A stretch of 64,000 nucleotides of DNA from Streptosporangiaceae bacterium NEAU-GS5 (GCA_017592665.1 JAGFNW010000027.1:28264-92263); one strand, 5' to 3'; counted from the stretch's first letter, positions 26,718-41,572 are shown. Notes: generated by a model not told the origin, from the letters alone. Translations and numbers: made by a program.

Positions 26718-28049
26718 GTGATCCTGGATCTGTTCTATCTGCTCGGCGCCGCGGTGCTGATCGCCGCGAACGCGGTTTTCGTCGCCGCGGAGTTCTCCCT
26801 GGTCACGGTCGAGCGCGCGCAGGTGGCCGAGCTCGCCGAAGCCGGCGACCGGGGCGCCCAGGGCATGCAGTCGGCGCTGCGCCGGCTGTCGTTCCACCTG
26901 TCGGGGGCGCAGCTCGGCATCACGATCACCTCGCTGCTGCTGGGGGTCCTCGCGGAGCCTGCCATCGCCGACCTGATCCGCCCGGCGTTCACCGCGATGG
27001 GCCTGCCGGAGGGGCTCGGCACCTCGGTCGCCGCCACCCTGGCGCTGTTCATCGCGACCGTGATCCAGATGATCCTCGGCGAACTCGTGCCGAAGAACGC
27101 AGCCCTGGCCAAACCCCTGCTCGTGGCCCGGCTGTCGATCCCGCCGCAACGGGTCTTCTCGGCCGTGTTCTCGCCTCTCATCCGGGCCTGCAACGCCACC
27201 GCCAACGCCATCGTGCGCGTCTTCGGCGCCGAGCCCCAAGACGAGCTCGCGTCGGCCCGTTCGCCCGACGAGCTGAGCCTGCTCGTGCGGCTGTCGGCCG
27301 AGGCCGGGGCGCTGCCGCCCAGCACGGCGGCCATGCTGCGCCGCGCCCTGCGCTTCGGCGACAAGACCGCGGGCGAGGCCATGACGCCGAGGACCTTCTG
27401 CGTGACCGTGCCCGAGCTCGCCACCGTCGCCGACTTCCTTGACGTGGCCTCACGCGAGCGGCATCTGCGGCTGCCGGTCGTCGGGGCGGAGGTGGACGAC
27501 ATCGTGGGCATCGCCGCGCTGCCCGGGGCGTACGCGATCGACGAGGCGGCGCGATCATCGACGCCGGTGACCCAGATCGTGCGGCACCCGGTGCGGGTGC
27601 CCGAGTCTGTGGCGCTGACCACGGTGCAGGAGCAGCTGATCGACGCCGACGCCGAGATGGCGGTCGTGGTCGACGAATATGGGGGATTCGCCGGCGTCAT
27701 CACCATTGAAGACCTTGCCGAAGAGCTGGTCGGCGAACTGGCCGACGAGTATGACCTTCCCGAAGAGGATTCGGCCGCGCCGGAGCCCGCACGACTCGCC
27801 CCCGAGACGTCCGTCGCCCTCCCCGCTCTGCTACGGGCCGACGAGGTGGAGGAGCGGACCGGTTTCCGGATGCCGGAGGGACCCTATGAGACGTTGGCCG
27901 GATTGGTGATCGCTCACCTCGGCCGCCTGGCCGAGCGCGGAGACGAGGTCGCCGTCGCCGGCTGGACCTTGCGGGTCGACTCGGTGCGCGGCCATCGGAT
28001 CGACCAGATCTCGCTGACCGCTCCCCGACGCGAAGGAGAGACGTCGTGA
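26718..28049 (+). CDS. hemolysin-family CNNM (DUF21)-CBS-CorC/HlyC transporter-associated protein
   Basis: GTG preceded by a strong RBS GGAGGAGG. N-terminal DUF21 TM domain 'AEFSLVTVERAQVAELAE', CBS pair and a CorC_HlyC C-terminus. Confidence 0.85.
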   Translation: MILDLFYLLGAAVLIAANAVFVAAEFSLVTVERAQVAELAEAGDRGAQGMQSALRRLSFHLSGAQLGITITSLLLGVLAEPAIADLIRPAFTAMGLPEGLGTSVAATLALFIATVIQMILGELVPKNAALAKPLLVARLSIPPQRVFSAVFSPLIRACNATANAIVRVFGAEPQDELASARSPDELSLLVRLSAEAGALPPSTAAMLRRALRFGDKTAGEAMTPRTFCVTVPELATVADFLDVASRERHLRLPVVGAEVDDIVGIAALPGAYAIDEAARSSTPVTQIVRHPVRVPESVALTTVQEQLIDADAEMAVVVDEYGGFAGVITIEDLAEELVGELADEYDLPEEDSAAPEPARLAPETSVALPALLRADEVEERTGFRMPEGPYETLAGLVIAHLGRLAERGDEVAVAGWTLRVDSVRGHRIDQISLTAPRREGETS

Positions 28050-29083
28050 GCCTTCTCGATCTCGCCATCGTCGTCGTCCTGCTGGCGGTCAACGGCTTCT
28101 TCGTGGGCGCGGAGTTCGCCCTGATCTCGGCGCGCCGTACGCAGATCGAGCCCGGCGCCGCGGCGGGTTCGCGCCGCGCCCGCGCCGTCCTGGCGGCCAT
28201 GGACGCCGTCCCGACCATGCTGGCAGCCGCGCAACTGGGCGTGACGCTGGCCTCGCTCGCGCTCGGCGCCGTAGCCGAGCCCGTGCTCGGGCACGCGCTC
28301 GAAACGCTCTTCGCGGACGTGGGCCTGCCCACGGAACTGGCCGATCCCGTGGGTCTCGCGCTCGCCCTGCTGGTGGTGGTGACGGCGCACGTGATCATCG
28401 GCGAGATGGTGCCCAAGAACCTGGCGCTGTCCGGCCCGGACACGGCCGCGTTGTGGCTGGTCCCACCGCTGCTCTTCGTCGCGCGGGTCACGCGCCCGCT
28501 GCTCGCCGCCATTCAGGCCACCGCCACGTTGGTCCTGCGCGGGCTGGGCATCCCTCCAACGTCGGAGGTGCGGTCGGTCTACACCTCAGACGAGCTGCCC
28601 GCGCTGATCGAAGAATCGCGCCGGCACCGGCTGCTCGACCAGCGCGAGCGCGACCGGATGCTGGCCACCCTGGCCCTGCATGCCCGGCCCGTACGCTCCG
28701 TGCTGGTGCCGATCGACCAGGTCGTCAGCGTGCCGGCGGCGACCGACGCGACCCGGCTCCAGCAATACACGGCGCGCCACGGCCACTCGCGGTTTCCCGT
28801 CCACGGAGACGATCCCCAGGAGCTGCGCGGATATCTGCACGCCCTCGACGCGCTCAACCGGCACGACCCGAAGAAGAACGGAAGCCGCGAGCCGCTTCCC
28901 GTCCGTCCCCTTCTGCGCATCGGCGAGACCGCCAGCCTGGCGGAGGTGCTGGCCACCCTGCGCGGCAGTCGCGCCCAGCTGGCCGTCGTCGTCGACGCCG
29001 ACGGGCAGGCCCTCGGCATCGTGACGCTCCGCGACGTCCTGGCCGGGCTCCTGCCCGAAAGAGGGCGTGAAGTGAGCGGCTGA
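28046..29083 (+). CDS. CNNM (DUF21)-CBS domain protein, paralogue of the upstream gene
   Basis: ATGA overlap with the upstream gene. 'GAEFALISARRTQIE' DUF21 domain plus CBS domains. Confidence 0.85.
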   Translation: MSLLDLAIVVVLLAVNGFFVGAEFALISARRTQIEPGAAAGSRRARAVLAAMDAVPTMLAAAQLGVTLASLALGAVAEPVLGHALETLFADVGLPTELADPVGLALALLVVVTAHVIIGEMVPKNLALSGPDTAALWLVPPLLFVARVTRPLLAAIQATATLVLRGLGIPPTSEVRSVYTSDELPALIEESRRHRLLDQRERDRMLATLALHARPVRSVLVPIDQVVSVPAATDATRLQQYTARHGHSRFPVHGDDPQELRGYLHALDALNRHDPKKNGSREPLPVRPLLRIGETASLAEVLATLRGSRAQLAVVVDADGQALGIVTLRDVLAGLLPERGREVSG

Positions 29084-29102: not shown

Positions 29103-30170
29103 TCAGTAGCGTGCGATCAGCGCTAGCCCCTGCTCGGTCGCGAGAGCGCCATCGGTGACGAAGCTGACGAAGGCGCCCGTGGCCATCGCCATCTCGATGA
29201 TGTCGTCGACGGCGTCGTGAGTGTCGCCGGCCGGACCGGCGACGAAGTGGTCGCCCTCGAAGTGGCCGGGCGCGTGATAGCTCTCTTCGACGACGAGATG
29301 AGCGCCCCGGCCCTGCTCGACCAGCGGCCAGATCTCGTCGACCCCGGTGACGTACAGCTTCGCGCTGCGGGCCCGGTCGAGCTCCTCCATGACCTGGTCC
29401 TGGCGGCGGGCGACGTAGTCGGCGATCGCCGGCTCGACCACTTCGGCGATCTGGGCCGGGCTCGCGGAGTCGTAGTTGCCGAGGACGCGCTCGGTGACCC
29501 GCTTGCCGAGGCCGCTCACCTCGTCGAGAAAGGCGTGATAGCGGTCCACGCCCAGCACGATGAGGGGCAGGTCGTCGTGCTTGACGACCTGCTCGGTGGC
29601 GTCGGCGACCTGCCGGAAGAACTGCCGGTGCCGCTCGTCGCGATGGGCGGAGGGGTTGATCCCCAGCCCGCCCGGCAACTGCTGAGCGCCGCCCGGACCT
29701 GTATGCGTCAGGGGGAAGCCGTCGCCGTGGATCTCCCGCACCTGGTCGCCGCTGCCGAGGAACATCCTCGTGTCGTTCTCCGACAGCGCGAGCACCCAGT
29801 AGTGCCGGGCCCGGTCGTAGGCGCGGACCAGATCACGGGTGTCGAACGTGTCGGCCAGAACGACCCGCTCGCCCACGGTGAACGGCAGGCTGAACGCGTG
29901 ATGTTCGCCCTCGGCGGCGTACAGTGCCAGCGCGTCGAGAGGGCGGAGGGTCGCCGACATCTCGGCCGCCTGCTCCAGCTCGGCCATGATGCGGCGGGCG
30001 CATTCCTTGTCGGTACGCTCGGTGAGCTGCCGCTCCGCCTCGGCGAGCAGGTTGCCCAGCCGGATGGGATCCTGCGCGTTCTCCGGGGCGTGCCGATGAG
30101 CCGGCATGAGCACGCTGACGGCAGGAGTGCTGTGGGGCTGCTGCAGCTTGATGATCTGATCGCGGTCCAC
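29103..30170 (-). CDS. release-factor-like (baeRF/eRF1-Pelota-like) domain protein, hypothetical
   Basis: 355 aa. Blocks 'VSVLMPAHR', 'TRMFLGSGDQV', 'LIVLGVDRY', 'AKLYVTGVDEIWPLVEQGRGAHLVVEE' and 'DDIIEMAMATGAFVSF' resemble the bacterial eRF1-like fold. Assigned from memory of the family, not a search. Confidence 0.5.
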   Translation of the reverse strand: MDRDQIIKLQQPHSTPAVSVLMPAHRHAPENAQDPIRLGNLLAEAERQLTERTDKECARRIMAELEQAAEMSATLRPLDALALYAAEGEHHAFSLPFTVGERVVLADTFDTRDLVRAYDRARHYWVLALSENDTRMFLGSGDQVREIHGDGFPLTHTGPGGAQQLPGGLGINPSAHRDERHRQFFRQVADATEQVVKHDDLPLIVLGVDRYHAFLDEVSGLGKRVTERVLGNYDSASPAQIAEVVEPAIADYVARRQDQVMEELDRARSAKLYVTGVDEIWPLVEQGRGAHLVVEESYHAPGHFEGDHFVAGPAGDTHDAVDDIIEMAMATGAFVSFVTDGALATEQGLALIARY

Positions 30171-30255: not shown

Positions 30256-31122
30256 TCATGCGCCATCAATGCCGGCGCTATGCCGCAGAACTCGTTGCCC
30301 ATGCGGATCCACCACAGCCGTCACCAGATCGCGCACTTCGGGAGCGTGTAGGTAGTTCCTGACGAGATGAAAGTCGAACCGATGGATCCGCAATGGGTCA
30401 TGTTGCTCCACATTGTCGAAGCGACTGCGGAGATCGAATGGCAGCGCGACCAGATCGCCGACGTCGGCGAGGTTGATCCAGCGGCGTACCCCCGGCGGCC
30501 GCCCGCATCGGTCATTCATCGGACCGGGCTGAAGCCGTTGAAAGATCACCTTGTTCATGCCTAGCGGACTGCCGAGGGTGATCAGAAGGTCGACCTTGGG
30601 ATCGGGCTGTGCCCAGAGCGCCTCGTAGGCTATGACGCTGCCCAAAGAGTGCGCGATCACCACCTGAGCTTGATTGGCGCGGATGGTTTCGGCGACCGTG
30701 GTGCGAGCTCTTATGCGGAACGACTCATCGCGAGGGCTTAGATAGGTGGCGACCTCGCGGACGAATGTGGTCCCCAGCCGCCGAGCGGTCGTGCCGTAGC
30801 GCTCAGTCAGCCATTCGGCGGCCTGCCGCACCTTCGCTGTGGCAGGCCCTTGCGAGGTGTGCGGCACGCCCATGAGCGACTCCACCCAGGCGACCAGCAA
30901 CTCCTGCTCTTCAGGCTCCAGCAGCGTCACGTCGTCCACGCCTTGCGCCGTACCCCGGTGCAACACGTCCGCGTAGTACGACACCGTAACTCGCGGCGCG
31001 GATTCAACCGACAGCCACCTGCTCCAGTCTTGGCTGATGGCCTCAGTAGCGGCATGCACCGAACCATGTTCGATCAGGTAGGAGTAGTTCCCGATCCCAT
31101 GGACCCCGACAATCCGAGTCAC
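30256..31122 (-). CDS. alpha/beta-hydrolase (lipase/esterase-like, PGAP1/DUF676-like) with GxSxG nucleophile
   Basis: 'VGVHGIG' N-terminus, nucleophile elbow 'AHSLGSVIAYEAL', 'ITLGSPLGM'. Lies 85 bp upstream of, and co-directional with, the release-factor-like gene. Confidence 0.7.
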   Translation of the reverse strand: MTRIVGVHGIGNYSYLIEHGSVHAATEAISQDWSRWLSVESAPRVTVSYYADVLHRGTAQGVDDVTLLEPEEQELLVAWVESLMGVPHTSQGPATAKVRQAAEWLTERYGTTARRLGTTFVREVATYLSPRDESFRIRARTTVAETIRANQAQVVIAHSLGSVIAYEALWAQPDPKVDLLITLGSPLGMNKVIFQRLQPGPMNDRCGRPPGVRRWINLADVGDLVALPFDLRSRFDNVEQHDPLRIHRFDFHLVRNYLHAPEVRDLVTAVVDPHGQRVLRHSAGIDGA

Positions 31123-31333
31123 GCCTTCTCCTCGTCTGATATGAGGTGTGCGAATCGACCGTGCGTCATGGTCGAGGCTCGTCTATCCAGAACGAATCAG
31201 GCAATCACCACTCTTACGAAAGTTCATAATTTCCACTCACTTTCAAGGTGCGTCGACCATAATAGAATCCGACCGACTGCGGCGGAAGCGTAGCTGGTCA
31301 TTTCACATCACCTGGTTGTGGAGGTTAGCCAGC
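31123..31333. promoter_or_regulatory. AT-rich divergent promoter region between the alpha/beta-hydrolase operon and the flotillin/STAND operon
   Basis: About 210 bp at roughly 45-50% GC against a background above 70% ('ttacgaaagttcataatttccactcactttcaagg', 'ccataatagaatcc'). RBS GGAGG lies 9 nt before ATG 31334. Confidence 0.5.
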
Positions 31334-32668
31334 ATGAGTGGGGCGTGGGTGGCTTTATTGGTGATTGTGGGACTGCTGTTACTCGCGGCTCTGGTTCTCA
31401 GGCATTGGTGGGAGACTCCGTCGCCGCAGCATGCGGTGGTTTTTCCGGGGAGCGGGTTCGGCAAGAGCGGCGATGCCGCGAATCTACGTGTCGTGGTCGG
31501 GCGTCCGCGACTGGTCCTGCCACCACGCCGCCACCGCGGGCGACTGAATCTCGGGACGCGCAATATTGAAGTGACGCTCGACTGCATGACGAATCAGGCA
31601 TTAAGGGTGAGAGTGGTAATCAGTATCACATATCGGGTCGGTAATTCTCCCGAGCAGATCCGGCGCGCGGCACTGCGATTCCTGAAAGACCCGGAGAGGC
31701 TGCTGGAGGTGGCCGTCAAGAATCTTGTCCAGCACAACGTGCGTACCGTGGTCGGTGAGGGTCCATACACGGCCCTGGTCCTGAATCTGGGAGAAGTCAA
31801 CGGAAAGGTCAAGGAGCGCATCCGCCAGGACTTTCAAGCCTTCGGCCTGGTGCTCGAGAACGCGGGCTTCGTCACCATCGATGATGTGGACGGGCACGGC
31901 ACGGCGTTACGCCGAGCGGCGGAGGTGGAGGCCGAGCTCAAGAAGGTGGAAGCCGACCAGCGGTTGCTGGTCGAAACGGCCCGCGCGCGAGCCGAGGCCG
32001 CGGCGGAAGTGCACGATCACAACGTGCGCTCCCACGCACTGAGCCTGGAGATCGCCACGCTTGAGGCGGATCTGGAGCGTAAGAAGCAGGAGCTCGCGGC
32101 TCGAAACATTCAGCTCGACAAACAGGACGAGTTGAGTAAGGCCCAGATCGATCACAAGATCCAGGTCCTCCATGTCGACACACGCAGCTATGAAGTCAAA
32201 CGGCGTATTGATATGGAGAGGGCCGAGCGCGAGGCCCGGAATGCGACGGACATCGAGTTGCGTCACGCGCTCGACCGGGCCGACGCGGAGAAGGGGATGG
32301 TGGAGGCCAAAGCCGAGGCCGTCCGGATTAAGGAGCGAGTCCAGGGCCTCACACCCGCGGAGGCGCAGGCGTTGATCACCCTTGAGCTCGCCGGGAAAAT
32401 GGACAAGATAGCTGCCGCGGCGAAGGTGGAGCTACCCAGCCTGGAACGGGTGATCACGTCGAGCAGCGACTCCAAGACCCTGCTCGACAACCTGATCGGA
32501 TTCGGGCTCCCGATCGCCGAGATGGTGGGCGAGATGTTCAGCCGAATGCGGGAGGCCGACCCGGCCAAGACGATCACGACGGTCGTTCAGCCGGAGATCC
32601 AGCCGCCCACGAAGCATGCCGATGAGGGACAGGCCGACGGGCGTGACGACATGCCCTCCTCCCAATGA
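31334..32668 (+). CDS. flotillin-like SPFH/band-7 domain membrane protein
   Basis: N-terminal TM 'MSGAWVALLVIVGLLLLAALVL', SPFH core ('LRVVVGRP...ALRVRVVISITYRV...QDFQAFGLVLENAGFVTIDDV') and a long Glu/Ala/Arg-rich coiled coil, as in FloT/flotillins. ATG at 31334 in track ORF 31148..32668. Confidence 0.85.
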   Translation: MSGAWVALLVIVGLLLLAALVLRHWWETPSPQHAVVFPGSGFGKSGDAANLRVVVGRPRLVLPPRRHRGRLNLGTRNIEVTLDCMTNQALRVRVVISITYRVGNSPEQIRRAALRFLKDPERLLEVAVKNLVQHNVRTVVGEGPYTALVLNLGEVNGKVKERIRQDFQAFGLVLENAGFVTIDDVDGHGTALRRAAEVEAELKKVEADQRLLVETARARAEAAAEVHDHNVRSHALSLEIATLEADLERKKQELAARNIQLDKQDELSKAQIDHKIQVLHVDTRSYEVKRRIDMERAEREARNATDIELRHALDRADAEKGMVEAKAEAVRIKERVQGLTPAEAQALITLELAGKMDKIAAAAKVELPSLERVITSSSDSKTLLDNLIGFGLPIAEMVGEMFSRMREADPAKTITTVVQPEIQPPTKHADEGQADGRDDMPSSQ

Positions 32669-35600
32669 CCACGGGTCCGACGGCACGGGCAATTGTGATC
32701 GCGATCACGGGGTTCGTCTCGGACCGCTGGTCGGCCCTGCCGTTCGCCGCCGCCCGCGCGTACGCCATACGGCGCGCCCTGCTCTCGCACGGATATCACT
32801 GCGTGACGCACATCACCGCGAGACTCACGTCCGCCGAGTTCGGCACGCTGGTACGGAACGAACTTCGCCGCGCCGGGCCAGATGACACCCTTCTTATCCA
32901 TATCCTCACGCATGGCGACATTGCCAACAAAAGCGTCCTGTACGCCCTGGGCAGCGATGGCCTCCGTCACCCCGACACGGACGTAGAGGCGTGGATCAGG
33001 ACAGTACAGAACGTCGACGGCCACCCCTTCACCCTGTTCTTGCTCGATATGTGCTACGGCGGGACGATGGCCCGGCTCTCGTGGCAGGCGAGCATCGGCC
33101 GCGCCGACACGCGAGCCTGGGTCATCGCCGCCTGCCAGCCGGACGAGGCGGCTTTCGACGGCCGCTTCAGCCAGGCCGTGGCCACCGTGCTCGACCTGCT
33201 GAGACAGGGCGACCTCGAGATCGACCCAAGCCACGCGTATGTGCCGTTCGGCGCGATCGCCCGCGCCATCCGGCAGGAGGTGAACCGGCTCGCAGGAGAT
33301 GGCCTGCGCCAACAGGTCACCGCCACGAGCGAAGATCCCGGAGATGAGGCCGCGGCGCCTCCCTTTTTCCGCAACACGGCTCACACACGCAGACGCCTCC
33401 CGGAACCGGCGAGCCAGGGGCCGGCCGACGGGGGTGCCTGGATCGTGGCGTACTTCGCCGACCAGGCGGCCGGAGCGGCGGTCTCCGGCGAAGGGGGGGC
33501 GGACCGGCCGAGAGCGGGCCGTTTCACTGGACGCAGAGATCAGCTCGGTCATCTGGCACCCTGGGTCAACCGCCTGACGGCAGGTGATCTCGCCGTGGTC
33601 ACCGGTGGCCCTGGCAGCGGCAAATCGGCACTGCTCGGCGTGCTGGTGTGCGCCGCCCATCCACTGTTGTACGCGACGGCACGGGATCTGCTGGCCGAGG
33701 TGACCCCCCTGCCCGCGCCTGTGCTCGACGGGTTCGCCGCGGTGCACGTGGCACAACGCGGGCTCGCCACGGTGTGCGACGCCATCGGACGGCAGCTGGG
33801 GCTACCCGCGGATCTCTCGGCCGACGAGCTGATCGAGCGGGTGCTTGAACGCGACCGCCCACCGGTATTGGTGATCGACGGGCTCGACGAGGCCGACGAC
33901 GGGCCGGCCATCATGCGGCGGCTGCTGCTTCCCCTGGTGAGCACGCGACGTCCCGACGGGTGGGCCGCAGCGCGGCTGCTGGTAGGCAGTCGCACATACG
34001 AGGAGTTCGAGCCGCTGCTCGAACGCGCTCGCGTCGCCGGCAATCTCATCGACCTTGACGTCGTGCCACCTGAGGACCTGCGCAAGGACCTTGCCACGTA
34101 CATATTTCGGTTGCTTCAGGACGAGCCGGCCTACCTGCGGCACGGCGCCGTGCAGGGCGCGTTCGCCGGCGCCGTGGCGGAGACTCTCACAGCGCCGCAT
34201 GGAAAAGGGCGGCAGCAGGGGGAGTTCCTCGTCGCCGGACTGTACACACGTCATTTCGTCGCCGCACACGCTCACGCTCCCATGACCGACCCAGATCGGG
34301 CCCGGGCGCTGGGACAGCGCGCGCCGAGAACGCTGGCCGAGGTGTTCGAGTTGGACATCGCGGATCGGCCTGCCTTGCGCGAGCTGCTGACCGTTCTCGC
34401 CACGGCGCGTGAACCCGGCATGCCAGTCGGCGTACTGTTCCGGATGATCACCGCCGGGCAACGTCCAGGCAGGGGCGCGAGGACAGGAACGAGCGCTGAG
34501 GTGACGACGGGCTCGCCGGCAGAAACGGGCGCCGCCGCGGACCGCATGACCATCGGACGAGTACGCGCGATGCTGCGCGAGGGTCGGCATTACCTGCGTC
34601 AGTCGACCGACACGCGGGACGGCACCACCCTCTATCGCCTATTTCACCGCAGCTTGATCGACCACCTCGCCGTGCCGGGGATAGCAGGCGACAGCCTGGA
34701 GGCGATGCTCGGGATACTGGGGCCGGCGTCCGCCCGTGACTGGGAGATGGCCGAGCCATACCTGCTCGATCACGCATGGGCATACGCGGTCGCCGCCGGA
34801 CGCGCGGCCGAGTTGCTCGATGATCCCGAATACCTGCTGAATCTCACTTCCGGGCCGCTGACGGCCGTCCTGCGAGAAGCCGGAGATCTCCCGCTCCTGT
34901 CAGCGTTCGCCGAAGTCCCGCCGATCGGGGCGGCGCCGCTGTCGGAACGGCGGTATGCGCTGGCCCTCGCGGCCGCCCGGGCGGACCGCACGCAATTCGC
35001 GGCACGCGCCGCGCGGCCACCCACCACGCAGCCGCTGCCGTGGCAACCTCTCTGGTCGAAGGGAACGCCCGTCGCGGCTGGATCACCGAGTGCGTCCACG
35101 GCCTCGCCTGCGTCCGTGCCGGCTCCGCCCTCGCCGGCCGGCGATTTCGAGCTGGCCAAGAGCAGAAGGAAACAGGAGGTCCAGGCGCTGGCCACGGCCT
35201 CGATCGAAGGGCGGCCCGTTCTCGCGGCGGCCGGCGACGACGGCCGAATACAGCTTTGGGATCTCGCCTCCCGGAAGGTCTCACTGCCACCGCTCACCGG
35301 CCACGCCGGGTCCGTGAATGCGATCGCCTGCTTCACGACGGGCGGACGGGCGAAGGCCGTCACGGCCGGATCCGACGGCACCTTACGGATATGGGACCTG
35401 GCCAGGCGGCAGTCCGAGCACATCTGGAACCTTGGTCAGGAGAGTTTTCTGCGCGGCGTGGCGTGCGCCTGGGTCGGCGACCAACAGGTAGCGGTAGTGG
35501 CCAGCGGTGACGGCTGGCTTCGCATGTGGGACGTGGTCCAGGGACGGCCCGTCGGCGGGCGGCTGGGCGAGCGGCCGGGCATTCTCACTGGTGTGGCCTG

Positions 35601-36738
35601 CGCGCAGGCTCACGGCCGTGCCGTCGCCGTCACCACGGACGAGGACGGGGAGGTGTCCGCAGTCGATCTCGGGAGTGGCGAGGTGATCGGCCGGCACGAG
35701 TATGCGCACGACGGTTCCGCGCGCGCGGTGGCCTGCACCGCGGCGGCCGATCCCCCGCTGGTCGTGACGACCGGCGACGGCGGCGTGATCCGTGTCTGGA
35801 AGCTGACCGACACTCTTGTCCCCCTCTTCAAGCTCACGGGACATCGGGACACGGTCGAGGCGGTGGCGTGCGCCACGCTTGGCGGCCGGGACGTGGTGAT
35901 CAGCGGCGACGTCGACGGCAGGGTCATCGTCTGGGATGTGGCGGAGGGGGTTCAGATCTACCAGGCTCGGCTGCGCCGCGGCTTGGTTCGGGCCGTGGCC
36001 GGCACCCTTCTCGGCACACGACCCTTCGTCCTGACCGCCGCTTCCGGGGGCGCGCTGGCCGGGCGGGATTTGAGCGAAGCGCTGTCCGGCCGGCAAGCAG
36101 CCGAGCGATCGACCGGCAGCGCGGCGGCTGCGGCCCCTCGTGGCGTCCAGATCACCCGGCTCGACGTCTTGAGTGATGAGACCGTGCGCCTCGTCTTCGC
36201 GCACGCCGGCGCCATCATTGTGGACCCGCGAACTGGTAAGGCCATCGACGGCGAGGTGGCCATGCGGGAACCCGCCGCAAATCCGCGGCAGGACGATGAC
36301 TCCCCCGTTGCCGCGACATCCGCGACGTTCTCCTTGCATGGTCGCACTATGGTGGCCGAGGTCGGTGACGACCCTCGGACCCTGCGGCTACGCGAAGCGA
36401 CATCCCACGCTCCATCACGCCCCGTTGATGATCATGGGCGCCCGTTGGGCCGTCACGAGAGCCGCATAACGACGGTGTCGGTCGCCAAGCCGGTTGGTGG
36501 CGCACCGCCCCTGCTGTTCAGCGGTGACGTGGACGGCACCGTGCGGGTCTGGGATCCGGTGCACGGGCGTGCAATGCCGGGCTTCACCTTGCCGGGGGAG
36601 ATCGTCGGTATCACGCCGCTGCGAGGGGAACTGGTCCTGGTCGACATCGGCGGTGAGATCATCGCGCTGCACCGTGCCACGACCACCGAGCACCGCGCAT
36701 CCGCCGATGGAACGGGACCCAGAGCGTCGGTCACATAA
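32665..36738 (+). CDS. caspase-like (peptidase C14) / NACHT ATPase / WD40 beta-propeller STAND protein
   Basis: 1356 aa. ATG overlaps the flotillin stop (ATGA 32665-32668). Caspase His 'IHILTHGD' (H83) and Cys 'FLLDMCYGG' (C130). NACHT Walker A 'VVTGGPGSGKS' (~aa 315) and Walker B 'PVLVIDGLDEADD' (~aa 405). From about aa 835 onward, at least 12 WD40 repeats ('RIQLWDL', 'TLRIWDL', 'WLRMWDV', 'VIRVWKL', 'RVIVWDV', 'TVRVWDP'). Confidence 0.9.
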   Translation: MTTGPTARAIVIAITGFVSDRWSALPFAAARAYAIRRALLSHGYHCVTHITARLTSAEFGTLVRNELRRAGPDDTLLIHILTHGDIANKSVLYALGSDGLRHPDTDVEAWIRTVQNVDGHPFTLFLLDMCYGGTMARLSWQASIGRADTRAWVIAACQPDEAAFDGRFSQAVATVLDLLRQGDLEIDPSHAYVPFGAIARAIRQEVNRLAGDGLRQQVTATSEDPGDEAAAPPFFRNTAHTRRRLPEPASQGPADGGAWIVAYFADQAAGAAVSGEGGADRPRAGRFTGRRDQLGHLAPWVNRLTAGDLAVVTGGPGSGKSALLGVLVCAAHPLLYATARDLLAEVTPLPAPVLDGFAAVHVAQRGLATVCDAIGRQLGLPADLSADELIERVLERDRPPVLVIDGLDEADDGPAIMRRLLLPLVSTRRPDGWAAARLLVGSRTYEEFEPLLERARVAGNLIDLDVVPPEDLRKDLATYIFRLLQDEPAYLRHGAVQGAFAGAVAETLTAPHGKGRQQGEFLVAGLYTRHFVAAHAHAPMTDPDRARALGQRAPRTLAEVFELDIADRPALRELLTVLATAREPGMPVGVLFRMITAGQRPGRGARTGTSAEVTTGSPAETGAAADRMTIGRVRAMLREGRHYLRQSTDTRDGTTLYRLFHRSLIDHLAVPGIAGDSLEAMLGILGPASARDWEMAEPYLLDHAWAYAVAAGRAAELLDDPEYLLNLTSGPLTAVLREAGDLPLLSAFAEVPPIGAAPLSERRYALALAAARADRTQFAARAARPPTTQPLPWQPLWSKGTPVAAGSPSASTASPASVPAPPSPAGDFELAKSRRKQEVQALATASIEGRPVLAAAGDDGRIQLWDLASRKVSLPPLTGHAGSVNAIACFTTGGRAKAVTAGSDGTLRIWDLARRQSEHIWNLGQESFLRGVACAWVGDQQVAVVASGDGWLRMWDVVQGRPVGGRLGERPGILTGVACAQAHGRAVAVTTDEDGEVSAVDLGSGEVIGRHEYAHDGSARAVACTAAADPPLVVTTGDGGVIRVWKLTDTLVPLFKLTGHRDTVEAVACATLGGRDVVISGDVDGRVIVWDVAEGVQIYQARLRRGLVRAVAGTLLGTRPFVLTAASGGALAGRDLSEALSGRQAAERSTGSAAAAAPRGVQITRLDVLSDETVRLVFAHAGAIIVDPRTGKAIDGEVAMREPAANPRQDDDSPVAATSATFSLHGRTMVAEVGDDPRTLRLREATSHAPSRPVDDHGRPLGRHESRITTVSVAKPVGGAPPLLFSGDVDGTVRVWDPVHGRAMPGFTLPGEIVGITPLRGELVLVDIGGEIIALHRATTTEHRASADGTGPRASVT

Positions 36739-36802
36739 TCCCTGTCGGGCCTACCTCAGCTATTGGCACGACCGCCGCGGACCAGCACGAACCGTCCTTG
36801 GC

Positions 36803-38308
36803 TCATTGTGCGAGTTCCACCGTCGGCATCCCGGTGAGGGCGATGAGAGCTTCGGCGAAGGCGTTGAGCGCTGCGGGGGAAACGTCGCCGGGCGACACGT
36901 CGGGTGAGATCTGCACGGTCAGGCCTCCTCGCGCATTGGCGCGTATGCCGATCCGCGTCGCGTCGAGGCCGACGATGACGCGGAACCAGGTTCGAACAGT
37001 TTCGTCCAGATCGTCGGTGAGCGGCAGGGGTGCCATCCGGTCGGCACCGACCGACTCAAGGATCGTCCACTCCTGTCCGCCGAGCTCGTCCAGTAACCGG
37101 GGGATGTCAGTGCTGACGACATAAAGGCAGCGCATCCCGACCCGAGACGCCGACCCCGTATGACAACCGGCCACCAAGGACCCCACCCCGAACGACGTCA
37201 GGGCCGCATTCACCCGAGGTGACTTGACGAAGTCCTTCGGCAGTCGCCAGGCAACGCTCAGTTCGATCAATTTGGTATCGGCGGAGTGGTGTATGGAGGC
37301 GCCGTTCACCACCCTGCCGTCGAGGGCGGGCGCGGCCATCGCGATCACCTGCTCGGCCACCGAATCGAGGTCTCCTGCTCTGAGGGCACTCAAGACCGGT
37401 CCCCACGCATCTGCATGTAGGTGGCCGAGCAACTCCCAGGCACACCCGCTGAGAATCGCTTGACGGGTGCGTTCACGGTGTTCCCGGGTCTCGGACCCGG
37501 GACAGGCCGCGACCAGGCCTTTGATCAGGCATGCCGCCAGTGGACCGAGATACGACCCGATTTCCGCGACGGGCACGCCGTAGTCACGGGCGCGGCGATG
37601 CAGCGTGTCCAGATCGCAGTCGGCCTGCGCGATCCAACCCTCGACGCGCAGGCGTTCCATGGCGCTGCCGGTGCCGTAAAGCGAGGGCAGCGCGCGAGCC
37701 AACCGCGTCAGTCCCTCCGCATGCTCGCGGATCTGGGTCAGGACGGCCGAGCGCCTGGCTTCGCGGCGCAGTTCGCTATGCGGATCACGCTCGATGACCG
37801 CGGACTCCACTCCCACGATCTCCAGGAAGCCGCCTGCCAACGTCGTCGCCCACTGCTCGACGATCGGAGCGATCTCGAAGCCGTGCCGTCTGACCTGCTC
37901 GTAGTCGAGATCAGCGAGTAACCTGCGAACGCGTCCGTCGAACTCGTTACGCAGCGTGGCCTCGTCCGTGAGCGTGCCGATGTCGTATTCCTCGACCCAT
38001 TCGATCAGTTCCTCGTCGTCGACGAAGGCCAGCCGCACCAGCGCGGTGACGGACAGTTGGACGAGCGCGCCGTCTCGCAGCCGAATCTGCGGGATCGTCG
38101 ACGAGTGGCGTACGACGCTCCGACTGAAGGTGACGATTTCGAGATGGCCGAGCAGCGGAACCCCGGACAGCGGGCCATGACGCCCCGGGCCGAGGACTCG
38201 GCGGCGAGGCCGGCCGTTGTGTTTGACCACCACACGTTCTGACGCGTCAACGGGGAATGCGCGCCTCGGCCATTCCTCCCAGGTGATCAGTAACCCAAGT
38301 GACATCAT
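36803..38308 (-). CDS. soluble SPFH/band-7-like domain protein with large C-terminal helical region
   Basis: N-terminal region 'VVVKHNGRPRRRVLGPGRHGPLSGVPLLGHLEIV...IRLRDGALVQLSVTALVRLAFVD...GGFLEIVGVESAVIERDP' follows the SPFH consensus. No TM segment. Convergent with the STAND gene, 64-bp gap. Confidence 0.6.
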   Translation of the reverse strand: MMSLGLLITWEEWPRRAFPVDASERVVVKHNGRPRRRVLGPGRHGPLSGVPLLGHLEIVTFSRSVVRHSSTIPQIRLRDGALVQLSVTALVRLAFVDDEELIEWVEEYDIGTLTDEATLRNEFDGRVRRLLADLDYEQVRRHGFEIAPIVEQWATTLAGGFLEIVGVESAVIERDPHSELRREARRSAVLTQIREHAEGLTRLARALPSLYGTGSAMERLRVEGWIAQADCDLDTLHRRARDYGVPVAEIGSYLGPLAACLIKGLVAACPGSETREHRERTRQAILSGCAWELLGHLHADAWGPVLSALRAGDLDSVAEQVIAMAAPALDGRVVNGASIHHSADTKLIELSVAWRLPKDFVKSPRVNAALTSFGVGSLVAGCHTGSASRVGMRCLYVVSTDIPRLLDELGGQEWTILESVGADRMAPLPLTDDLDETVRTWFRVIVGLDATRIGIRANARGGLTVQISPDVSPGDVSPAALNAFAEALIALTGMPTVELAQ

Positions 38309-38372
38309 CGCTCATTTCACACGCGGCCAGTGAGACCGGCCCGGCGGCGCTCACCGGAACGGTTTCGCCTCG

Positions 38373-39683
38373 TCACATTTCCCGGGTGTACAGATCGTCA
38401 TCTGCCATGCGCCGCAACCGGCGTGATCGCTGCTCCTGGTAGTACCGGTCGTCGGCGAGCTCGAGCCGGGCCATGTCGCGCATGTGCCGTCCGCGCTCGC
38501 GCATTCTTGTCCGCGCATTCGCGATCTTCTCGTCCTTGGTGAGGATGCGCAGCTCGGAGGCTTCCTCCAGCTCGGCCTCCCGGGCGGCGAGCAGATTCTC
38601 GTAAGGGCTTTTCCCGCCACTTCCCATGAGCGCCTTCCCGGCCACCGGAAGAACGTCGACCAGAATGATCAGCAAGGCGAGCACGAGATGGCGGAAGAAC
38701 ACCGAAGTGTGCTCACCACTCAGCGTCGACAACGCCTCCATACGAATGAGCAGTCCGTCGACCTCACGGTTGGCCGACTCCTCCAACGCGATTCTCTTGT
38801 CACGGTCGGCCTCGAGTTCGCGTTGTTTCAGACGCAACCTCTCTTCCTCTTCTTTGAGCGAGCGATCCTCGGCTGCTATCTTCTGGTCGATGCCCTTCAG
38901 CGTCGCGTTGAGATCGCGGACCGTATCCTGCTGGTCTCGCATCTGACTCTTCTTCTGTAGGGCCGAAGGGCCCTCGCCGGGAAGATGAGTGTTACTCTTG
39001 CCATCGATCTCATCGTCAAGCCTGGTCTGCAGCTTGTCTAGCTGTTCACCGGCATCCTTGATCTTTTGCTCCTGTCCCGCATGCTGATGCCGCAATTGCC
39101 GCAGGCGTTCCGAGGGCTGTCCGGCCGCCTTTATCTGCTGGTCCAGCGCGTTTATCTGCTGTGTTAGGTCGCTTCGGCCGACTGCCCTGTCGGCCTCGTC
39201 CATCCGCTCCCTCCTGATGGCGGCGACCTCGGCGGTTACCTCGGGCTCGAAGATGACCAGGATGAGCGGCTCGGAGATCGTTAGCCCCAAGATCACTGAC
39301 AGGAAAAGACGTGGAGCCAACGCCCCGATTTTCGCCTTACCGGACATCTTGGACCGATAGCTAGATACGAGCCACCGGTCAAGATTGAATATCGCGACAG
39401 CCCACAGCGCGCCAACGATCGCATTCACGGCGAAAGATGTCTTGAACGCCAAGGAGACAGAAACCACCATCGCCGTGCCGGCCATCACTGCCGTGGTGAC
39501 GACCCCGCCCCCCAATCCCTGATATCGGGTCGTCTCGGCTCGTGGACACCGGTCGAGTATGTCGCGGTCAGCACCGCTCGCAAAGATCATGAATCGCTCG
39601 ACGAAGCCGCGAGGGCCCTTCAAGCGGACCGGGGTGATGGATGAACGCATATCGGCGGACCCATTCACCGAATTGAGCGACAT
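38373..39683 (-). CDS. DUF4407-like membrane protein with long coiled coil
   Basis: N-terminus 'FASGADRDILDRCPRAETTRYQGLGGGVVTTAVMAG...FNLDRWLVSSY' matches the DUF4407 pattern (LSGA...P.ER.R...G..IL). Then 3 TM and about 200 aa of Glu/Arg/Gln coiled coil. Start uncertain (three in-frame Met). Confidence 0.65.
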   Translation of the reverse strand: MSLNSVNGSADMRSSITPVRLKGPRGFVERFMIFASGADRDILDRCPRAETTRYQGLGGGVVTTAVMAGTAMVVSVSLAFKTSFAVNAIVGALWAVAIFNLDRWLVSSYRSKMSGKAKIGALAPRLFLSVILGLTISEPLILVIFEPEVTAEVAAIRRERMDEADRAVGRSDLTQQINALDQQIKAAGQPSERLRQLRHQHAGQEQKIKDAGEQLDKLQTRLDDEIDGKSNTHLPGEGPSALQKKSQMRDQQDTVRDLNATLKGIDQKIAAEDRSLKEEEERLRLKQRELEADRDKRIALEESANREVDGLLIRMEALSTLSGEHTSVFFRHLVLALLIILVDVLPVAGKALMGSGGKSPYENLLAAREAELEEASELRILTKDEKIANARTRMRERGRHMRDMARLELADDRYYQEQRSRRLRRMADDDLYTREM

Positions 39684-40035: not shown

Positions 40036-40395
40036 CTAGAGCTTGATCTGATCGACGTGCTGTTCCACCCACGTGCGCAACAGCGCCAAGGGAACGGTCA
40101 CGCTCTGCCCCAAGGAGGTGAGGGCGTATTCCACATGCAGGGGGACGGCCGGATAGATGGTGCGGTCGAGGAAGCCCGCATCTTCGAGTCGCCGCAGTGT
40201 CTGAGTCAGCACCTTCGGGCTGACCCCCTGCAGGTGGCGTTGCAACGCGCCGAAGCGCTGCGGCCCGGCCTCCAGAGCGCCGATGACCAGGGCCGACCAC
40301 TTGTTGGCCAGCAGATCCAGCACGTCACGGCACGGGCAGAGCGCCGAGTAGACGTCATGATGGTCGTGCTCGCCGCTCTCACATCGCATCACCAC
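40036..40395 (-). CDS. HxlR family (winged-helix) transcriptional regulator
   Basis: 'CPCRDVLDLLANKWSALVIGALEAGPQRFGALQRHLQGVSPKVLTQTLRRLEDAGFLDR'. Confidence 0.85.
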   Translation of the reverse strand: MVMRCESGEHDHHDVYSALCPCRDVLDLLANKWSALVIGALEAGPQRFGALQRHLQGVSPKVLTQTLRRLEDAGFLDRTIYPAVPLHVEYALTSLGQSVTVPLALLRTWVEQHVDQIKL

Positions 40396-40505
40396 AGCCG
40401 ACCTCCTTACTTCCCAATAGATAGTAATCCTCCTTGCGGGTCACTACCATCCGGCAGATAGCTTGCGGTCGTCTCGAACGAGGACGGAACAACGAGGAGA
40501 CAGCC

Positions 40506-41471: not shown

Positions 41472-41572
41472 GCCGGCCTCGACTTCGTGACCGACTCGCT
41501 CGATTCCGCCGGGCCCTATGCTGCGCAGTGCGGATGGCGGCGGACTCCGCCCGGCAGGAGCTGACGAGTCTG

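What the first reader, a model, noticed from the sequence alone, without database searches (positions are those of the whole stretch)
31334..36738. Flotillin (SPFH) gene translationally coupled to a caspase-NACHT-WD40 STAND gene
Two plus-strand genes share an ATGA stop/start overlap at 32665-32668.

Gene 1 (445 aa) has an N-terminal TM helix, an SPFH/band-7 core and a long EA-rich coiled coil. These are the features of membrane-microdomain flotillins.

Gene 2 (1356 aa) has three parts. A caspase-like peptidase C14 domain carries a candidate His/Cys dyad (H83 in IHILTHGD, C130 in LDMCYGG). A NACHT-type STAND ATPase follows (GGPGSGKS, VLVIDGLDEADD). The C-terminus holds about 12 WD40 repeats.

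Caspase-STAND-WD40 'apoptotic ATPase' proteins are known in actinomycetes and cyanobacteria. NACHT/STAND proteins are known antiphage sensors. I am not aware of a described operonic coupling to a flotillin scaffold.

The coupling suggests the STAND sensor/protease is recruited to, or regulated at, a membrane microdomain. This would be a prokaryotic counterpart of raft-localised death signalling.
Basis: partly seen in the sequence, partly recalled or inferred. Interest (0 to 1): 0.9.

Follow-up and report, generated by a model that had tools for sequence, protein, structure and literature searches.

The report
SPFH-coupled caspase-STAND gene cassette
A rare five-gene island in filamentous actinomycetes links an Apaf-1/NLR-like caspase-ATPase-WD40 sensor protein to membrane SPFH scaffold proteins, which suggests, without proving it, that this bacterial cell-death or immunity switch works at the membrane.

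Summary
A 444-aa single-TM SPFH protein (31334-32668) overlaps by ATGA a 1357-aa protein (32665-36738). That protein has a caspase-fold domain with an invariant His83/Cys130 dyad, a STAND P-loop ATPase and WD40 repeats.

The pairing is not chance. The same ATGA-coupled pair occurs in all five members of one clade of the caspase-STAND family, all placeable ones in Streptosporangiales, with different flanking genes.

The unit is larger than reported:
- All five loci also carry a convergent ~500-aa divergent SPFH-like protein (36803-38308). A 4-TM coiled-coil DUF4407 protein (38373-39683) lies beside it in the four loci that extend that far.
- Three of five carry a Ser-Asp-His α/β-hydrolase (30256-31122). 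This hydrolase is the usual partner of SPFH-less paralogues.
- The five window genes share low GC3 (0.74-0.80, against 0.90 in the flanks), as expected for an acquired island.

"Flotillin" and "NACHT" are over-specific labels; SPFH and STAND are what the tests support.

My best reading is a caspase/α/β-hydrolase conflict system of the kind described by Kaur et al. 2020, with a new membrane-scaffold module. The function is inferred, not shown. I found no published description of this coupling. I class it as a new variant of a known kind, with moderate-to-high interest.

The parts
30256..31122 (-). 288-aa cytosolic α/β-hydrolase, lipase-like. The oxyanion HG is at H8/G9 and the nucleophile Ser159 sits in a GHSLG motif (codon 30646-30648). 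The acid residue is D220 or D223, and the triad His is H252. It is transcribed divergently from the SPFH gene.
   Evidence: It is 47-62% identical to the gene translationally coupled downstream of SPFH-less caspase-STAND paralogues, and to genes in loci L004 and L005. The triad residues are invariant in 6 sequences. Pfam hits are sub-threshold: PGAP1 in 6/6 members, Abhydrolase_6 in 5/6 and LCAT in 3/6. A PDB 'putative lipase' aligns at the GxSxG motif. GC3 is 0.74, like the rest of the island.
31123..31333 (.). Divergent intergenic region with GC 0.52. A -10-like CATAAT lies at 31258-31263 and a GGAGG ribosome-binding site at about 31322-31326.
   Evidence: A CATAAT/ACTAAT box aligns upstream of the SPFH start in all five loci. 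This is weak evidence: the consensus promoter scan found nothing. GC value.
31334..32668 (+). SPFH1, 444 aa. It has an N-terminal TM helix (residues 4-22), an SPFH/Band-7 domain (33-222), a long Glu/Ala-rich coiled coil and a conserved C-terminal segment (GLPIxEMV).
   Evidence: Pfam Band_7 scores 50.9 bits, above the cutoff. A profile hits prohibitin-2, PH stomatin and stomatin in the PDB. The TM helix comes from hydropathy analysis. Only two close homologues exist among 5.8 billion clusters. Alignment A5.
32665..36738 (+). Caspase-STAND-WD40 protein, 1357 aa, with its start overlapping the SPFH1 stop (ATGA). The caspase domain covers about residues 6-222 (32680-33330), with the H83 codon at 32911-32913 and the C130 codon at 33052-33054. 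The STAND ATPase and helical domains cover about residues 286-800; Walker A is at 33601-33627 and Walker B at 33862-33897. WD40 repeats cover about residues 800-1357 (35062-36735).
36803..38308 (-). A 501-aa cytosolic protein convergent with gene 2. It has a divergent SPFH-like N-terminal domain of about 200 aa, a helical middle region and a conserved C-terminal α/β region.
   Evidence: It is present in all five cassettes at 30-55% identity. Pfam Band_7 scores 22.4 bits, just under the cutoff. A family member, P0135, passes the cutoff at 29.4 bits over 2-173/176 of the profile. The top PDB profile hit is the flotillin-2 SPFH domain, at E 0.22. NCBI names the Acrocarpospora orthologue 'SPFH domain-containing'. 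The family has only 15 representatives among 1.84 billion. It has no TM helix. The AF2 model failed with pLDDT 46.5. hhalign against the SPFH1 family was not significant.
38373..39683 (-). DUF4407 membrane protein, 436 aa. It has three N-terminal TM helices, a coiled coil of about 160 aa, a fourth TM helix and a basic C-terminal tail. It lies upstream of the 501-aa gene and is co-directional with it.
   Evidence: Pfam DUF4407 scores 233 bits. TM helices were found by hydropathy. It is present in the four cassettes whose contigs extend that far, at 44-56% identity.

Best explanation
The finding is the core of a horizontally acquired island of four to five genes (window 30256-39683). The island is a membrane-coupled variant of the caspase-STAND-WD40 plus α/β-hydrolase 'conflict' systems (immunity or programmed cell death) of filamentous actinomycetes.

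Proposed mechanism, with each step marked as shown or inferred:
1. The WD40 propellers of gene 2 bind a trigger, such as a phage or other invader protein, or a damage cue. Inferred from Apaf-1, NLR and Avs biology.
2. The STAND ATPase, whose Walker A and B motifs are intact and invariant, drives NTP-dependent oligomerisation. The motifs are shown; the behaviour is inferred.
3. Oligomerisation brings the N-terminal caspase domains together and activates them. The caspase fold and the invariant His/Cys dyad are shown; the activation is inferred.
4. The protease acts together with the Ser-Asp-His α/β-hydrolase, which is the family's general partner. The pairing is shown; the chemistry is inferred.
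5. In this clade the complex is tethered to, or gated by, an oligomeric membrane scaffold. The scaffold is built from the single-TM SPFH protein made in fixed ratio from the same mRNA, plus the SPFH-like 501-aa protein and the 4-TM DUF4407 protein. As a result, activation or execution happens at the cytoplasmic membrane, by analogy with HflK/C-FtsH and stomatin-NfeD. The co-inheritance and the ATGA coupling are shown; the physical complex and the outcome at the membrane are inferred.
For: Architecture:
- The dyad and the Walker motifs are invariant in 68 homologues.

Linkage:
- The same SPFH / caspase-STAND / 500-aa / DUF4407 arrangement occurs in Acrocarpospora catenulata, Sinosporangium siamense, Actinomadura graeca and one SRA assembly. 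Its flanks differ between loci.
- All four protein families show congruent pairwise identities.
- ATGA overlaps are present in all five loci.
- The five SPFH-linked proteins form one clade among 68 family members.

The island:
- GC3 is 0.74-0.80 for the five genes and 0.90 for the flanking genes.
- The flanks are housekeeping genes.

The hydrolase partner:
- It lies next to the caspase-STAND gene in 5 of 5 SPFH-less loci and in 3 of 5 SPFH loci.
- Its catalytic triad is invariant.

Conflict-system character:
- Paralogues sit beside transposases, a Prim-Pol/TraG element, and Ubl/E1 genes.
- Relatives of the 501-aa protein sit beside TPR-CHAT proteases and ThiF/JAB genes.
- Kaur et al. 2020 (PMC7159879) describe caspase + α/β-hydrolase pairing, the EACC1 (1-TM) + caspase membrane system, and Band7 scaffolds in such systems.
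- A 2026 Nature survey notes bacterial Apaf-1-like STANDs that have WD40 sensors and N-terminal caspases.
Against: - There is no experimental evidence of any kind.
- No PADLOC defence model matches any of the five proteins meaningfully, and there are no PHROG matches.
- The window flanks are housekeeping genes, not a defence island.
- Only five instances are known. All but one unplaced SRA contig are in Streptosporangiales, so shared descent could explain part of the synteny.
- Pattern scans found nothing more. The genome scan with DUF4407 patterns returned only two cassette species. The metagenome scans with the 501-aa and SPFH1 patterns and the viral scan with SPFH1 patterns returned none. 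These pattern scans are restrictive.
- The hydrolase is absent within 10 kb in Sinosporangium.
- The SPFH assignment of the 501-aa protein rests on weak or transitive sequence evidence. Its structure model failed.
- Nothing shows that the SPFH protein and the STAND protein touch each other.
Confidence: 0.5

Rival explanations
1. Guard model. The membrane assembly (SPFH1, the 501-aa protein and DUF4407) is the input rather than the platform or output. The STAND-WD40 protein monitors the integrity or conformation of the SPFH/DUF4407 scaffold. It fires its caspase when phage entry, holins or other membrane damage disturb that scaffold.
For: - Kaur et al. propose that the 1-TM EACC1 partner of related caspases is a membrane-associated sensor that activates the caspase.
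- The best NCBIfam hit of this caspase domain is the 'EACC1-associated type', although it is weak at 30.9 bits.
- The SPFH gene lies 5' of the caspase gene and is ATGA-coupled to it in all five loci.
- Two of the partners are integral membrane proteins.
Against: WD40 sensors of Apaf-1-like proteins usually bind soluble ligands. No interaction data exist. The sequence evidence fits this model and the platform model equally well.
Confidence: 0.2
2. A non-immune developmental or stress module. The cassette controls compartment death or membrane remodelling in hyphae or sporangia, or is a membrane-repair system whose components are regulated by proteolysis. In that case it has no role against phages.
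For: - The system is confined to filamentous, differentiating actinomycetes.
- SPFH/flotillin proteins are classically membrane-organisation and stress proteins (established knowledge).
- There are no PADLOC hits.
- Kaur et al. link such systems to multicellular habit.
Against: - The distribution is patchy and rare: 5 loci, and a 501-aa family of 15 representatives among 1.84 billion.
- The codon composition is atypical, and the genomic positions vary.
- Paralogues lie on mobile elements.
- These features fit accessory conflict genes better than a core developmental function.
Confidence: 0.15
3. Two independent modules are inherited side by side. These would be SPFH + caspase-STAND on one side and DUF4407 + the 501-aa protein on the other, with or without the hydrolase. 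In the extreme version, the SPFH gene is merely a conserved neighbour with no functional tie to gene 2.
For: - The two gene pairs are convergent and therefore form separate transcripts.
- DUF4407 proteins occur elsewhere without the cassette.
- Relatives of the 501-aa protein occur with other partners.
- All cassette hosts that can be placed taxonomically are in a single order (Streptosporangiales); the SRA contig is unplaced.
Against: - All recoverable genes are retained in 5 of 5 loci, down to about 30% identity, while the flanks differ.
- The SPFH1 family has no members outside the cassette: only cassette members score below E 1e-10.
- The ATGA overlap is strictly conserved.
- All five genes share low GC3.
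Confidence: 0.1

Closest known systems
Caspase + α/β-hydrolase pairing in NTP-dependent conflict systems (VMAP/MoxR-vWA ternary systems; Kaur, Burroughs, Iyer & Aravind, eLife 2020, PMC7159879)
   Same: An N-terminal caspase-superfamily domain sits on a large regulatory protein. A neighbouring stand-alone α/β-hydrolase gene accompanies it. The hosts are actinomycete or otherwise 'multicellular' bacteria. Band7-like domains are noted as superstructure-forming modules in those systems.
   Different: No MoxR or vWA gene lies within about 10 kb here. The caspase is fused to an active STAND ATPase and WD40 repeats rather than to a VMAP core. Band-7 is a separate, TM-anchored protein that is translationally coupled to the caspase gene. 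The DUF4407 protein and the 501-aa protein are not mentioned in the paper or in its one held supplement.
EACC1-caspase membrane-associated two-gene system (same paper, 'System 4')
   Same: A 5' gene encodes a single-TM membrane protein. A 3' gene encodes a protein with an N-terminal caspase followed by variable domains. The system is mostly actinobacterial. The only NCBIfam hit of this caspase domain is 'caspase, EACC1-associated type'.
   Different: The 5' partner here is a 444-aa SPFH/coiled-coil protein, not the small EACC1 domain. The NCBIfam score is 30.9 bits against a cutoff of 140, so membership is not met.
Apaf-1 / bacterial Apaf-1-like and NLR-like STAND proteins (Koonin & Aravind 2002; bNACHT, Avs; Nature 2026, PMC13581612)
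   Same: The layout is tripartite, with an effector, a STAND ATPase and a repeat sensor. The sensor is a WD40 β-propeller. A caspase replaces the CARD-recruited caspase. Fold matches include ZAR1, NRC2, NLRP3, NOD2, Apaf-1, CED-4, MalT and Avs3.
   Different: No PADLOC Avs or bNACHT model matches. The subfamily (NACHT or NB-ARC) is unresolved. No tested defence phenotype exists for this family. Operonic SPFH partners are not described for those proteins.
SPFH-protease partnerships: HflK/C-FtsH and stomatin-NfeD (STOPP) operons
   Same: An SPFH membrane scaffold is encoded with a protease and is presumed to act with it. Operon or overlap coupling is typical in these systems (established knowledge).
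   Different: The protease here is a cytosolic cysteine caspase on a STAND switch. It is not a membrane AAA+ metalloprotease or a ClpP-like serine protease. No NfeD or FtsH gene is nearby. This is an analogy only.
Bacterial gasdermin / caspase-like protease systems (Johnson et al. 2022)
   Same: A caspase-like protease, often fused to NACHT, WD40 or TPR domains, is encoded next to a partner of about 280 aa, with cell death executed at the membrane (my own knowledge).
   Different: The 288-aa partner here is an α/β-hydrolase with a Ser-Asp-His triad, not a gasdermin. No PADLOC gasdermin hit was found.

Membership tests
SPFH / Band 7 (Pfam PF01145), gene 1 | SPFH domain scoring above the curated threshold | tested here: met
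   50.9 bits against a cutoff of 23.6, over residues 33-222. A family profile hits prohibitin-2 (E 3e-5), PH stomatin and stomatin in the PDB.
Flotillin (FloT / reggie type), gene 1 | Match to the FloT equivalog model, or a flotillin C-terminal (Flot, PF15975) domain | tested here: not met
   NCBIfam FloT scores 43.4 bits against a cutoff of 700. No Flot-domain hit was found. Only remote relatives (E>1e-10) carry PF15975.
Flotillin (FloT / reggie type), gene 1 | Architecture of an N-terminal membrane anchor, an SPFH domain and a long Glu/Ala-rich coiled coil | tested here: met
   A TM helix at residues 4-22 was found by hydropathy, in 4 of 5 orthologues. The EA-rich helical segment at about 195-340 is visible in the sequence and alignment. 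The FloT alignment spans profile positions 3-360 of 477.
Peptidase C14 / caspase superfamily, gene 2 N-terminus | Pfam Peptidase_C14 (PF00656) match | tested here: not met
   No hit at E<=1 for residues 1-280. Several homologues do carry a precomputed PF00656 hit.
Peptidase C14 / caspase superfamily, gene 2 N-terminus | Caspase-haemoglobinase fold | tested here: met
Peptidase C14 / caspase superfamily, gene 2 N-terminus | Catalytic His-Gly and Cys dyad at the canonical positions | tested here: met
   H83, G84, D128 and C130 are invariant in 68 sequences. The profile aligns LTHGE to caspase 'LTHGE' and LLDxC to the caspase-3 'FQAC' motif. Proteolytic activity itself cannot be tested here.
NACHT (Pfam PF05729), gene 2 centre | NACHT domain scoring above threshold | tested here: inconclusive
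STAND NTPases | P-loop NTPase with intact Walker A/B, followed by helical/winged-helix domains and C-terminal repeats | tested here: met
   Walker A (GxxGxGKS) and Walker B (DxxDE) are invariant. The model shows an α/β NTPase followed by helical domains. WD40 repeats follow.
WD40 β-propeller, gene 2 C-terminus | WD40 repeats scoring above threshold | tested here: met
   Pfam WD40 scores 78-86 bits against a cutoff of 27, together with many propeller families. Seven blades are clear by motif.
VMAP / MoxR-vWA ternary conflict systems (Kaur et al. 2020) | Core MoxR AAA+ and vWA genes in the neighbourhood | tested here: not met
   Pfam scans of the neighbours from 24.7 to 44.4 kb show no MoxR or vWA.
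VMAP / MoxR-vWA ternary conflict systems (Kaur et al. 2020) | A caspase-bearing component accompanied by a neighbouring α/β-hydrolase gene | tested here: met
   The hydrolase lies at 30256-31122, and beside paralogues in 5 of 5 other loci.
EACC1-caspase two-gene system | Caspase of the EACC1-associated subfamily, and a 5' EACC1 gene | tested here: not met
   NF047832 scores 30.9 bits against a cutoff of 140. The 5' gene is an SPFH protein, not EACC1.
Known anti-phage systems (PADLOC-DB v2: Avs, bNACHT, gasdermin and others) | Match to any PADLOC protein model | tested here: not met
   Only a WD40/HEAT-like hit and a coiled-coil (JetC) hit were found, both spurious.
SPFH / Band 7, 501-aa protein | SPFH domain scoring above threshold | tested here: inconclusive
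   The window protein scores 22.4 bits against a cutoff of 23.6, and 2 of 5 orthologues hit. Relative P0135 passes at 29.4 bits. PDB flotillin-2 SPFH is hit at E 0.22. hhalign against the gene 1 family is not significant. The AF2 model is unusable.
DUF4407 (Pfam PF14362) | Domain scoring above threshold | tested here: met
   233 bits against a cutoff of 31.3.

The most novel reading that the evidence does not exclude
The SPFH1, SPFH-like and DUF4407 proteins form a membrane cage or microdomain that is an integral part of an apoptosome-like machine. It would act either as the guarded sensor of membrane integrity or as the platform on which the caspase-STAND oligomer assembles and executes membrane destruction with the lipase-like hydrolase. 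If so, this would be the first bacterial NLR/Apaf-like system whose activation is organised by SPFH scaffolds. It would then be a real mechanistic counterpart of raft or flotillin-organised death signalling, and a new function for prokaryotic SPFH proteins.
Probability: 0.2. Interest if true: 0.85.

Novelty: new variant of a known kind. Interest (0 to 1): 0.6.

Why it matters
The functions of bacterial SPFH/flotillin proteins remain poorly defined beyond 'membrane organisation' and the regulation of FtsH or NfeD proteases. Separately, bacterial STAND/NLR-like proteins are now recognised as ancestors or analogues of eukaryotic innate-immune and apoptotic switches.

This cassette has an SPFH scaffold co-translated with a caspase-STAND-WD40 protein, together with a second SPFH-like protein, a DUF4407 membrane protein and a lipase-like hydrolase. 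That makes it a compact, genetically tractable system for three questions:
- Are death or immune switches spatially organised at the bacterial membrane?
- What do DUF4407 and the 501-aa protein family do?
- What is the unexplained caspase-α/β-hydrolase pairing for?

The weight of the finding is limited by two things. The cassette is rare: five loci, all placeable ones in a single bacterial order. And there are no functional data at all.

Tried and rejected
- **AF2 of the 501-aa protein.** The model had pLDDT 46.5 and was unusable, so I did no fold search on it.
- **hhalign of the 501-aa family against the SPFH1 family.** Not significant. Only a short shared RVVv-GRp-vL-P-rH motif appeared.
- **Collection scans.** The genome-collection scan with the DUF4407 alignment used two very strict peptide patterns. 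It returned only Acrocarpospora, Sinosporangium and an unrelated, frameshifted Acidimicrobiales DUF4407. The two metagenome scans (501-aa family and SPFH1) and the viral scan (SPFH1) found nothing. All of these give lower bounds, not censuses.
- **DUF4407 against plasmids and phages.** There were two distant plasmid-collection hits without the cassette and no phage hits.
- **PADLOC and PHROGs.** No meaningful matches.
- **Gasdermin idea for the 288-aa partner.** Rejected. It has an HG...GHSLG...D...H hydrolase signature and sub-threshold PGAP1/Abhydrolase_6/LCAT hits.
- **baeRF gene at 29103-30170 as part of the system.** Rejected. It matches a ribosome-hibernation-factor family at 313 bits, has host-like GC3 of 0.90, and is absent from the other cassettes.
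- **Island boundaries.** I found no flanking direct or inverted repeats, no adjacent tRNA and no integrase.
- **Promoter and terminator scans.** Uninformative.
- **STAND profile against PDB sequences.** Nothing useful.
- **Supplement of Kaur et al.** The one supplementary file held as text contains none of Band7, Band_7, SPFH, DUF4407 or hydrolase.

Full report
**Observation**

Window 31334-32668 (+) encodes a 444-aa protein. Its ATG is preceded by GGAGG. The longer GTG-initiated ORF from 31148 is not supported by homologues.

Window 32665-36738 (+) encodes a 1357-aa protein. The two genes share ATGA at 32665-32668.

Gene 1:
- Pfam Band_7 is above threshold, at 50.9 bits against 23.6.
- It has one N-terminal TM helix at residues 4-22 and a long Glu/Ala-rich helical region.
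- Its family profile hits prohibitin, stomatin and PH stomatin in the PDB.
- The FloT equivalog model scores only 43 bits against a cutoff of 700. It is therefore an SPFH protein of flotillin/YqiK-like architecture, not a demonstrable flotillin.

Gene 2, sequence-level results:
- WD40 is strong.
- AAA_16 and NPHP3_N are above threshold. NACHT is just below, at 22.0 against 26.7.
- Pfam Peptidase_C14 does not hit at all.
- NCBIfam gives a weak hit over the full domain length to 'caspase, EACC1-associated type'.

**The caspase and STAND calls**

I aligned the first 800 residues with 67 homologues. H83, G84, D128 and C130 are invariant. So are Walker A (G314...K320 S321) and Walker B (D405, D408, E409).

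A small family profile hits insect caspase-1 (E 0.002) and caspase-3. It aligns LTHGE and LLDxC with their catalytic motifs.

- Cdc6/ORC
- the plant NLRs ZAR1 and NRC2
- MalT
- NLRP3 and NOD2
- Apaf-1, DARK and CED-4

So 'STAND' is supported, and 'NACHT' as opposed to NB-ARC is undecided.

Seven WD40 blades are clear by motif within the 557-aa C-terminal region.

**Is the adjacency meaningful?**

The SPFH protein has only two close homologues among 5.8 billion clusters: Acrocarpospora catenulata at 67% and Sinosporangium siamense at 37%. Gene 2 belongs to a large actinomycete family with 211 hits. Many are named 'caspase family protein' or 'NACHT and WD repeat'.

I looked up the contigs of the closest gene 2 relatives. 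The four nearest are Acrocarpospora, Sinosporangium, Actinomadura graeca and one SRA assembly. All have an SPFH gene immediately 5' with a 4-nt overlap. All five junctions read ATGA.

On a neighbour-joining tree of 68 family members, these five form a single clade (no bootstrap was run). The next-closest paralogues, at 42-44% identity, have no SPFH gene.

The flanking genes differ in every locus. The organism of the window is Streptosporangiaceae bacterium NEAU-GS5.

**The unit is bigger**

Downstream and convergent, every locus also carries a protein of about 500 aa. Where the contig extends far enough, a DUF4407 protein lies beside it.

Pairwise identities are congruent across the four families. 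For window against Acrocarpospora they are 67/59/55/56%. For window against Sinosporangium they are 37/42/34/44%. This indicates co-inheritance as a block.

DUF4407 is a 4-TM protein with a coiled coil of about 160 residues.

The 501-aa protein has no TM helix. Its N-terminal ~200 residues are a very divergent SPFH-like domain:
- The window protein scores 22.4 bits on Band_7 against a cutoff of 23.6.
- A family member, P0135, passes at 29.4 bits over nearly the whole profile.
- The top PDB hit of the family profile is the flotillin-2 SPFH domain, at E 0.22.
- NCBI names the Acrocarpospora orthologue 'SPFH domain-containing'.
- Direct hhalign against the gene 1 family is not significant.
- The two-sequence AF2 model failed.

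This assignment is therefore tentative. The family is tiny, with 15 representatives at E<=1e-3 among 1.84 billion.

**A fifth gene**

The SPFH-less paralogues all have a gene of about 282 aa that is translationally coupled downstream. That protein is 47-49% identical to the divergent upstream neighbour of gene 1 in the window (30256-31122, minus strand). It also matches genes at other positions in the A. graeca and SRA cassettes.

This protein is an α/β-hydrolase:
- HG, GHSLG (Ser159), D220/D223 and H252 are invariant.
- Sub-threshold Pfam hits go to PGAP1 (6 of 6 members), Abhydrolase_6 (5 of 6) and LCAT (3 of 6).
- A PDB 'putative lipase' aligns at the nucleophile elbow.

It lies next to the caspase-STAND gene in 5 of 5 SPFH-less loci and in 3 of 5 SPFH loci. 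It is absent within 10 kb in Sinosporangium. It could not be assessed in Acrocarpospora on the SPFH side, where the contig ends.

In the window, the five genes have GC3 of 0.74-0.80. The flanking genes are the CNNM pair and a ribosome-hibernation-factor gene on one side and an HxlR regulator and Zn-dehydrogenases on the other; the three measured (the CNNM pair and the hibernation-factor gene) have GC3 of 0.90. The island is therefore 30256-39683. I found no integrase, tRNA or terminal repeats at its edges.

**What it most likely is**

Kaur, Burroughs, Iyer and Aravind (eLife 2020, PMC7159879) report three relevant things about actinomycete and cyanobacterial NTP-dependent conflict systems:
- A caspase domain is 'always' accompanied by a neighbouring α/β-hydrolase gene.
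- A separate 'membrane-associated two-gene system' pairs a 5' single-TM protein (EACC1) with a 3' caspase-bearing protein.
- Band7-like domains occur as superstructure-forming modules.

A 2026 survey notes bacterial Apaf-1-like STANDs with WD40 sensors and N-terminal caspases.

The window cassette fits this world. It lacks the MoxR/vWA core and fails the EACC1-caspase threshold. It matches no PADLOC or PHROG model.

Paralogous loci lie beside transposases, a Prim-Pol/TraG element and Ubl/E1 genes. Distant relatives of the 501-aa protein lie beside TPR-CHAT proteases and ThiF/JAB genes. These are contexts typical of conflict systems.

I conclude that this is a membrane-coupled variant of the caspase-STAND-WD40 plus α/β-hydrolase system.

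**Mechanism**

Shown:
- the domain architecture and intact catalytic motifs
- the translational coupling
- co-inheritance of the genes
- island-like base composition

Inferred:
- The WD40 repeats bind a trigger.
- STAND oligomerisation activates the caspase by proximity.
- The caspase and the hydrolase act together.
- The SPFH1, SPFH-like and DUF4407 assembly tethers, gates or is targeted by the complex at the membrane, by analogy with HflK/C-FtsH and stomatin-NfeD.

The sequence data cannot tell whether the membrane assembly is a platform, a guarded sensor or a substrate. They also cannot tell whether the biological role is anti-phage defence or hyphal cell death.

**Novelty**

Full-text searches combined SPFH, flotillin or band 7 with STAND, NACHT, caspase, conflict systems or phage defence. 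They returned no description of this coupling. DUF4407 appears in only three unrelated papers.

I rate this a new variant of a known kind. It is of real but bounded interest, because the cassette is rare (five loci, all placeable ones in a single order) and untested.

Noticed in passing
L016 10001-19360 (Parafrankia elaeagni) and L017 3153-10263 (SRA SRR29837712): Distant relatives of the 501-aa SPFH-like protein are not next to DUF4407. Each is followed by two conserved unknown genes: one of about 330-390 aa (37% identity between loci) and one of about 950 aa (47% identity, weak P-loop_TraG hit). In L016 a TPR-CHAT protease follows. In L017 a ThiF E1 gene overlaps the start and a Prok-JAB/PKD gene lies upstream. 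This looks like a second, undescribed conflict-type module built around this protein family.
   Followed up: partly
L006 12191-13039, L007 12029-12898, L008 5371-6219, L014 10008-10829, L015 531-1397: The α/β-hydrolase partner is usually ATGA/4-nt coupled downstream of SPFH-less caspase-STAND-WD40 paralogues. In L015, two divergent caspase-STAND paralogues flank a single hydrolase gene, with Multi_ubiq/ThiF genes nearby.
   Followed up: partly
L008 862-5374: One paralogue has an N-terminal COXG/SRPBCC-like extension ahead of the caspase domain. Its WD40 part is called as a separate overlapping gene, which may be a frameshift or a true split.
   Followed up: no
L007 15556-20032 and L014 1-5721: Paralogous caspase-STAND/hydrolase pairs sit beside mobile-element genes. 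In L007 these are HTH_17, Prim-Pol and TraG/T4SS genes. In L014 they are a group II intron RT and IS110/DDE transposases. This is consistent with horizontal mobility of the family.
   Followed up: no
window 29103-30170 (-): This is a baeRF_family3 protein (Pfam 147.8 bits). It matches the NCBIfam 'AOC03_06830 family ribosome hibernation factor' at 313 bits, just under the cutoff of 330. Its GC3 is host-like, so it is not part of the cassette.
   Followed up: partly
window 26718-29083 (+): Two tandem CNNM/CBS (CorC-type) transporter-like genes overlap by 4 nt (28046-28049).
   Followed up: no
window 31225-31230 and 31258-31263: Two CATAAT hexamers lie in the AT-richer (GC 0.52) divergent intergenic region. 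The second aligns with a CATAAT/ACTAAT box upstream of the SPFH gene in all five cassettes, so it may be a conserved -10 element.
   Followed up: partly
window 24700-26397 (-): A 565-aa ORF has very strong coding signal (GC3 0.95) but no Pfam, NCBIfam or PADLOC match.
   Followed up: no
window 40036-41471: An HxlR-type regulator (minus strand) is divergent from a zinc-dependent dehydrogenase. A second Zn-ADH paralogue lies at 41528-42592. This is the ordinary flank that marks the downstream edge of the island.
   Followed up: yes
L013 7896-10382 (Rhodococcus plasmid pLW2): A much longer DUF4407 protein (828 aa) overlaps an upstream NYN-domain gene on a conjugative plasmid. PP2C phosphatase, FHA and FtsW/RodA genes follow it. 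This is a different context for DUF4407.
   Followed up: no
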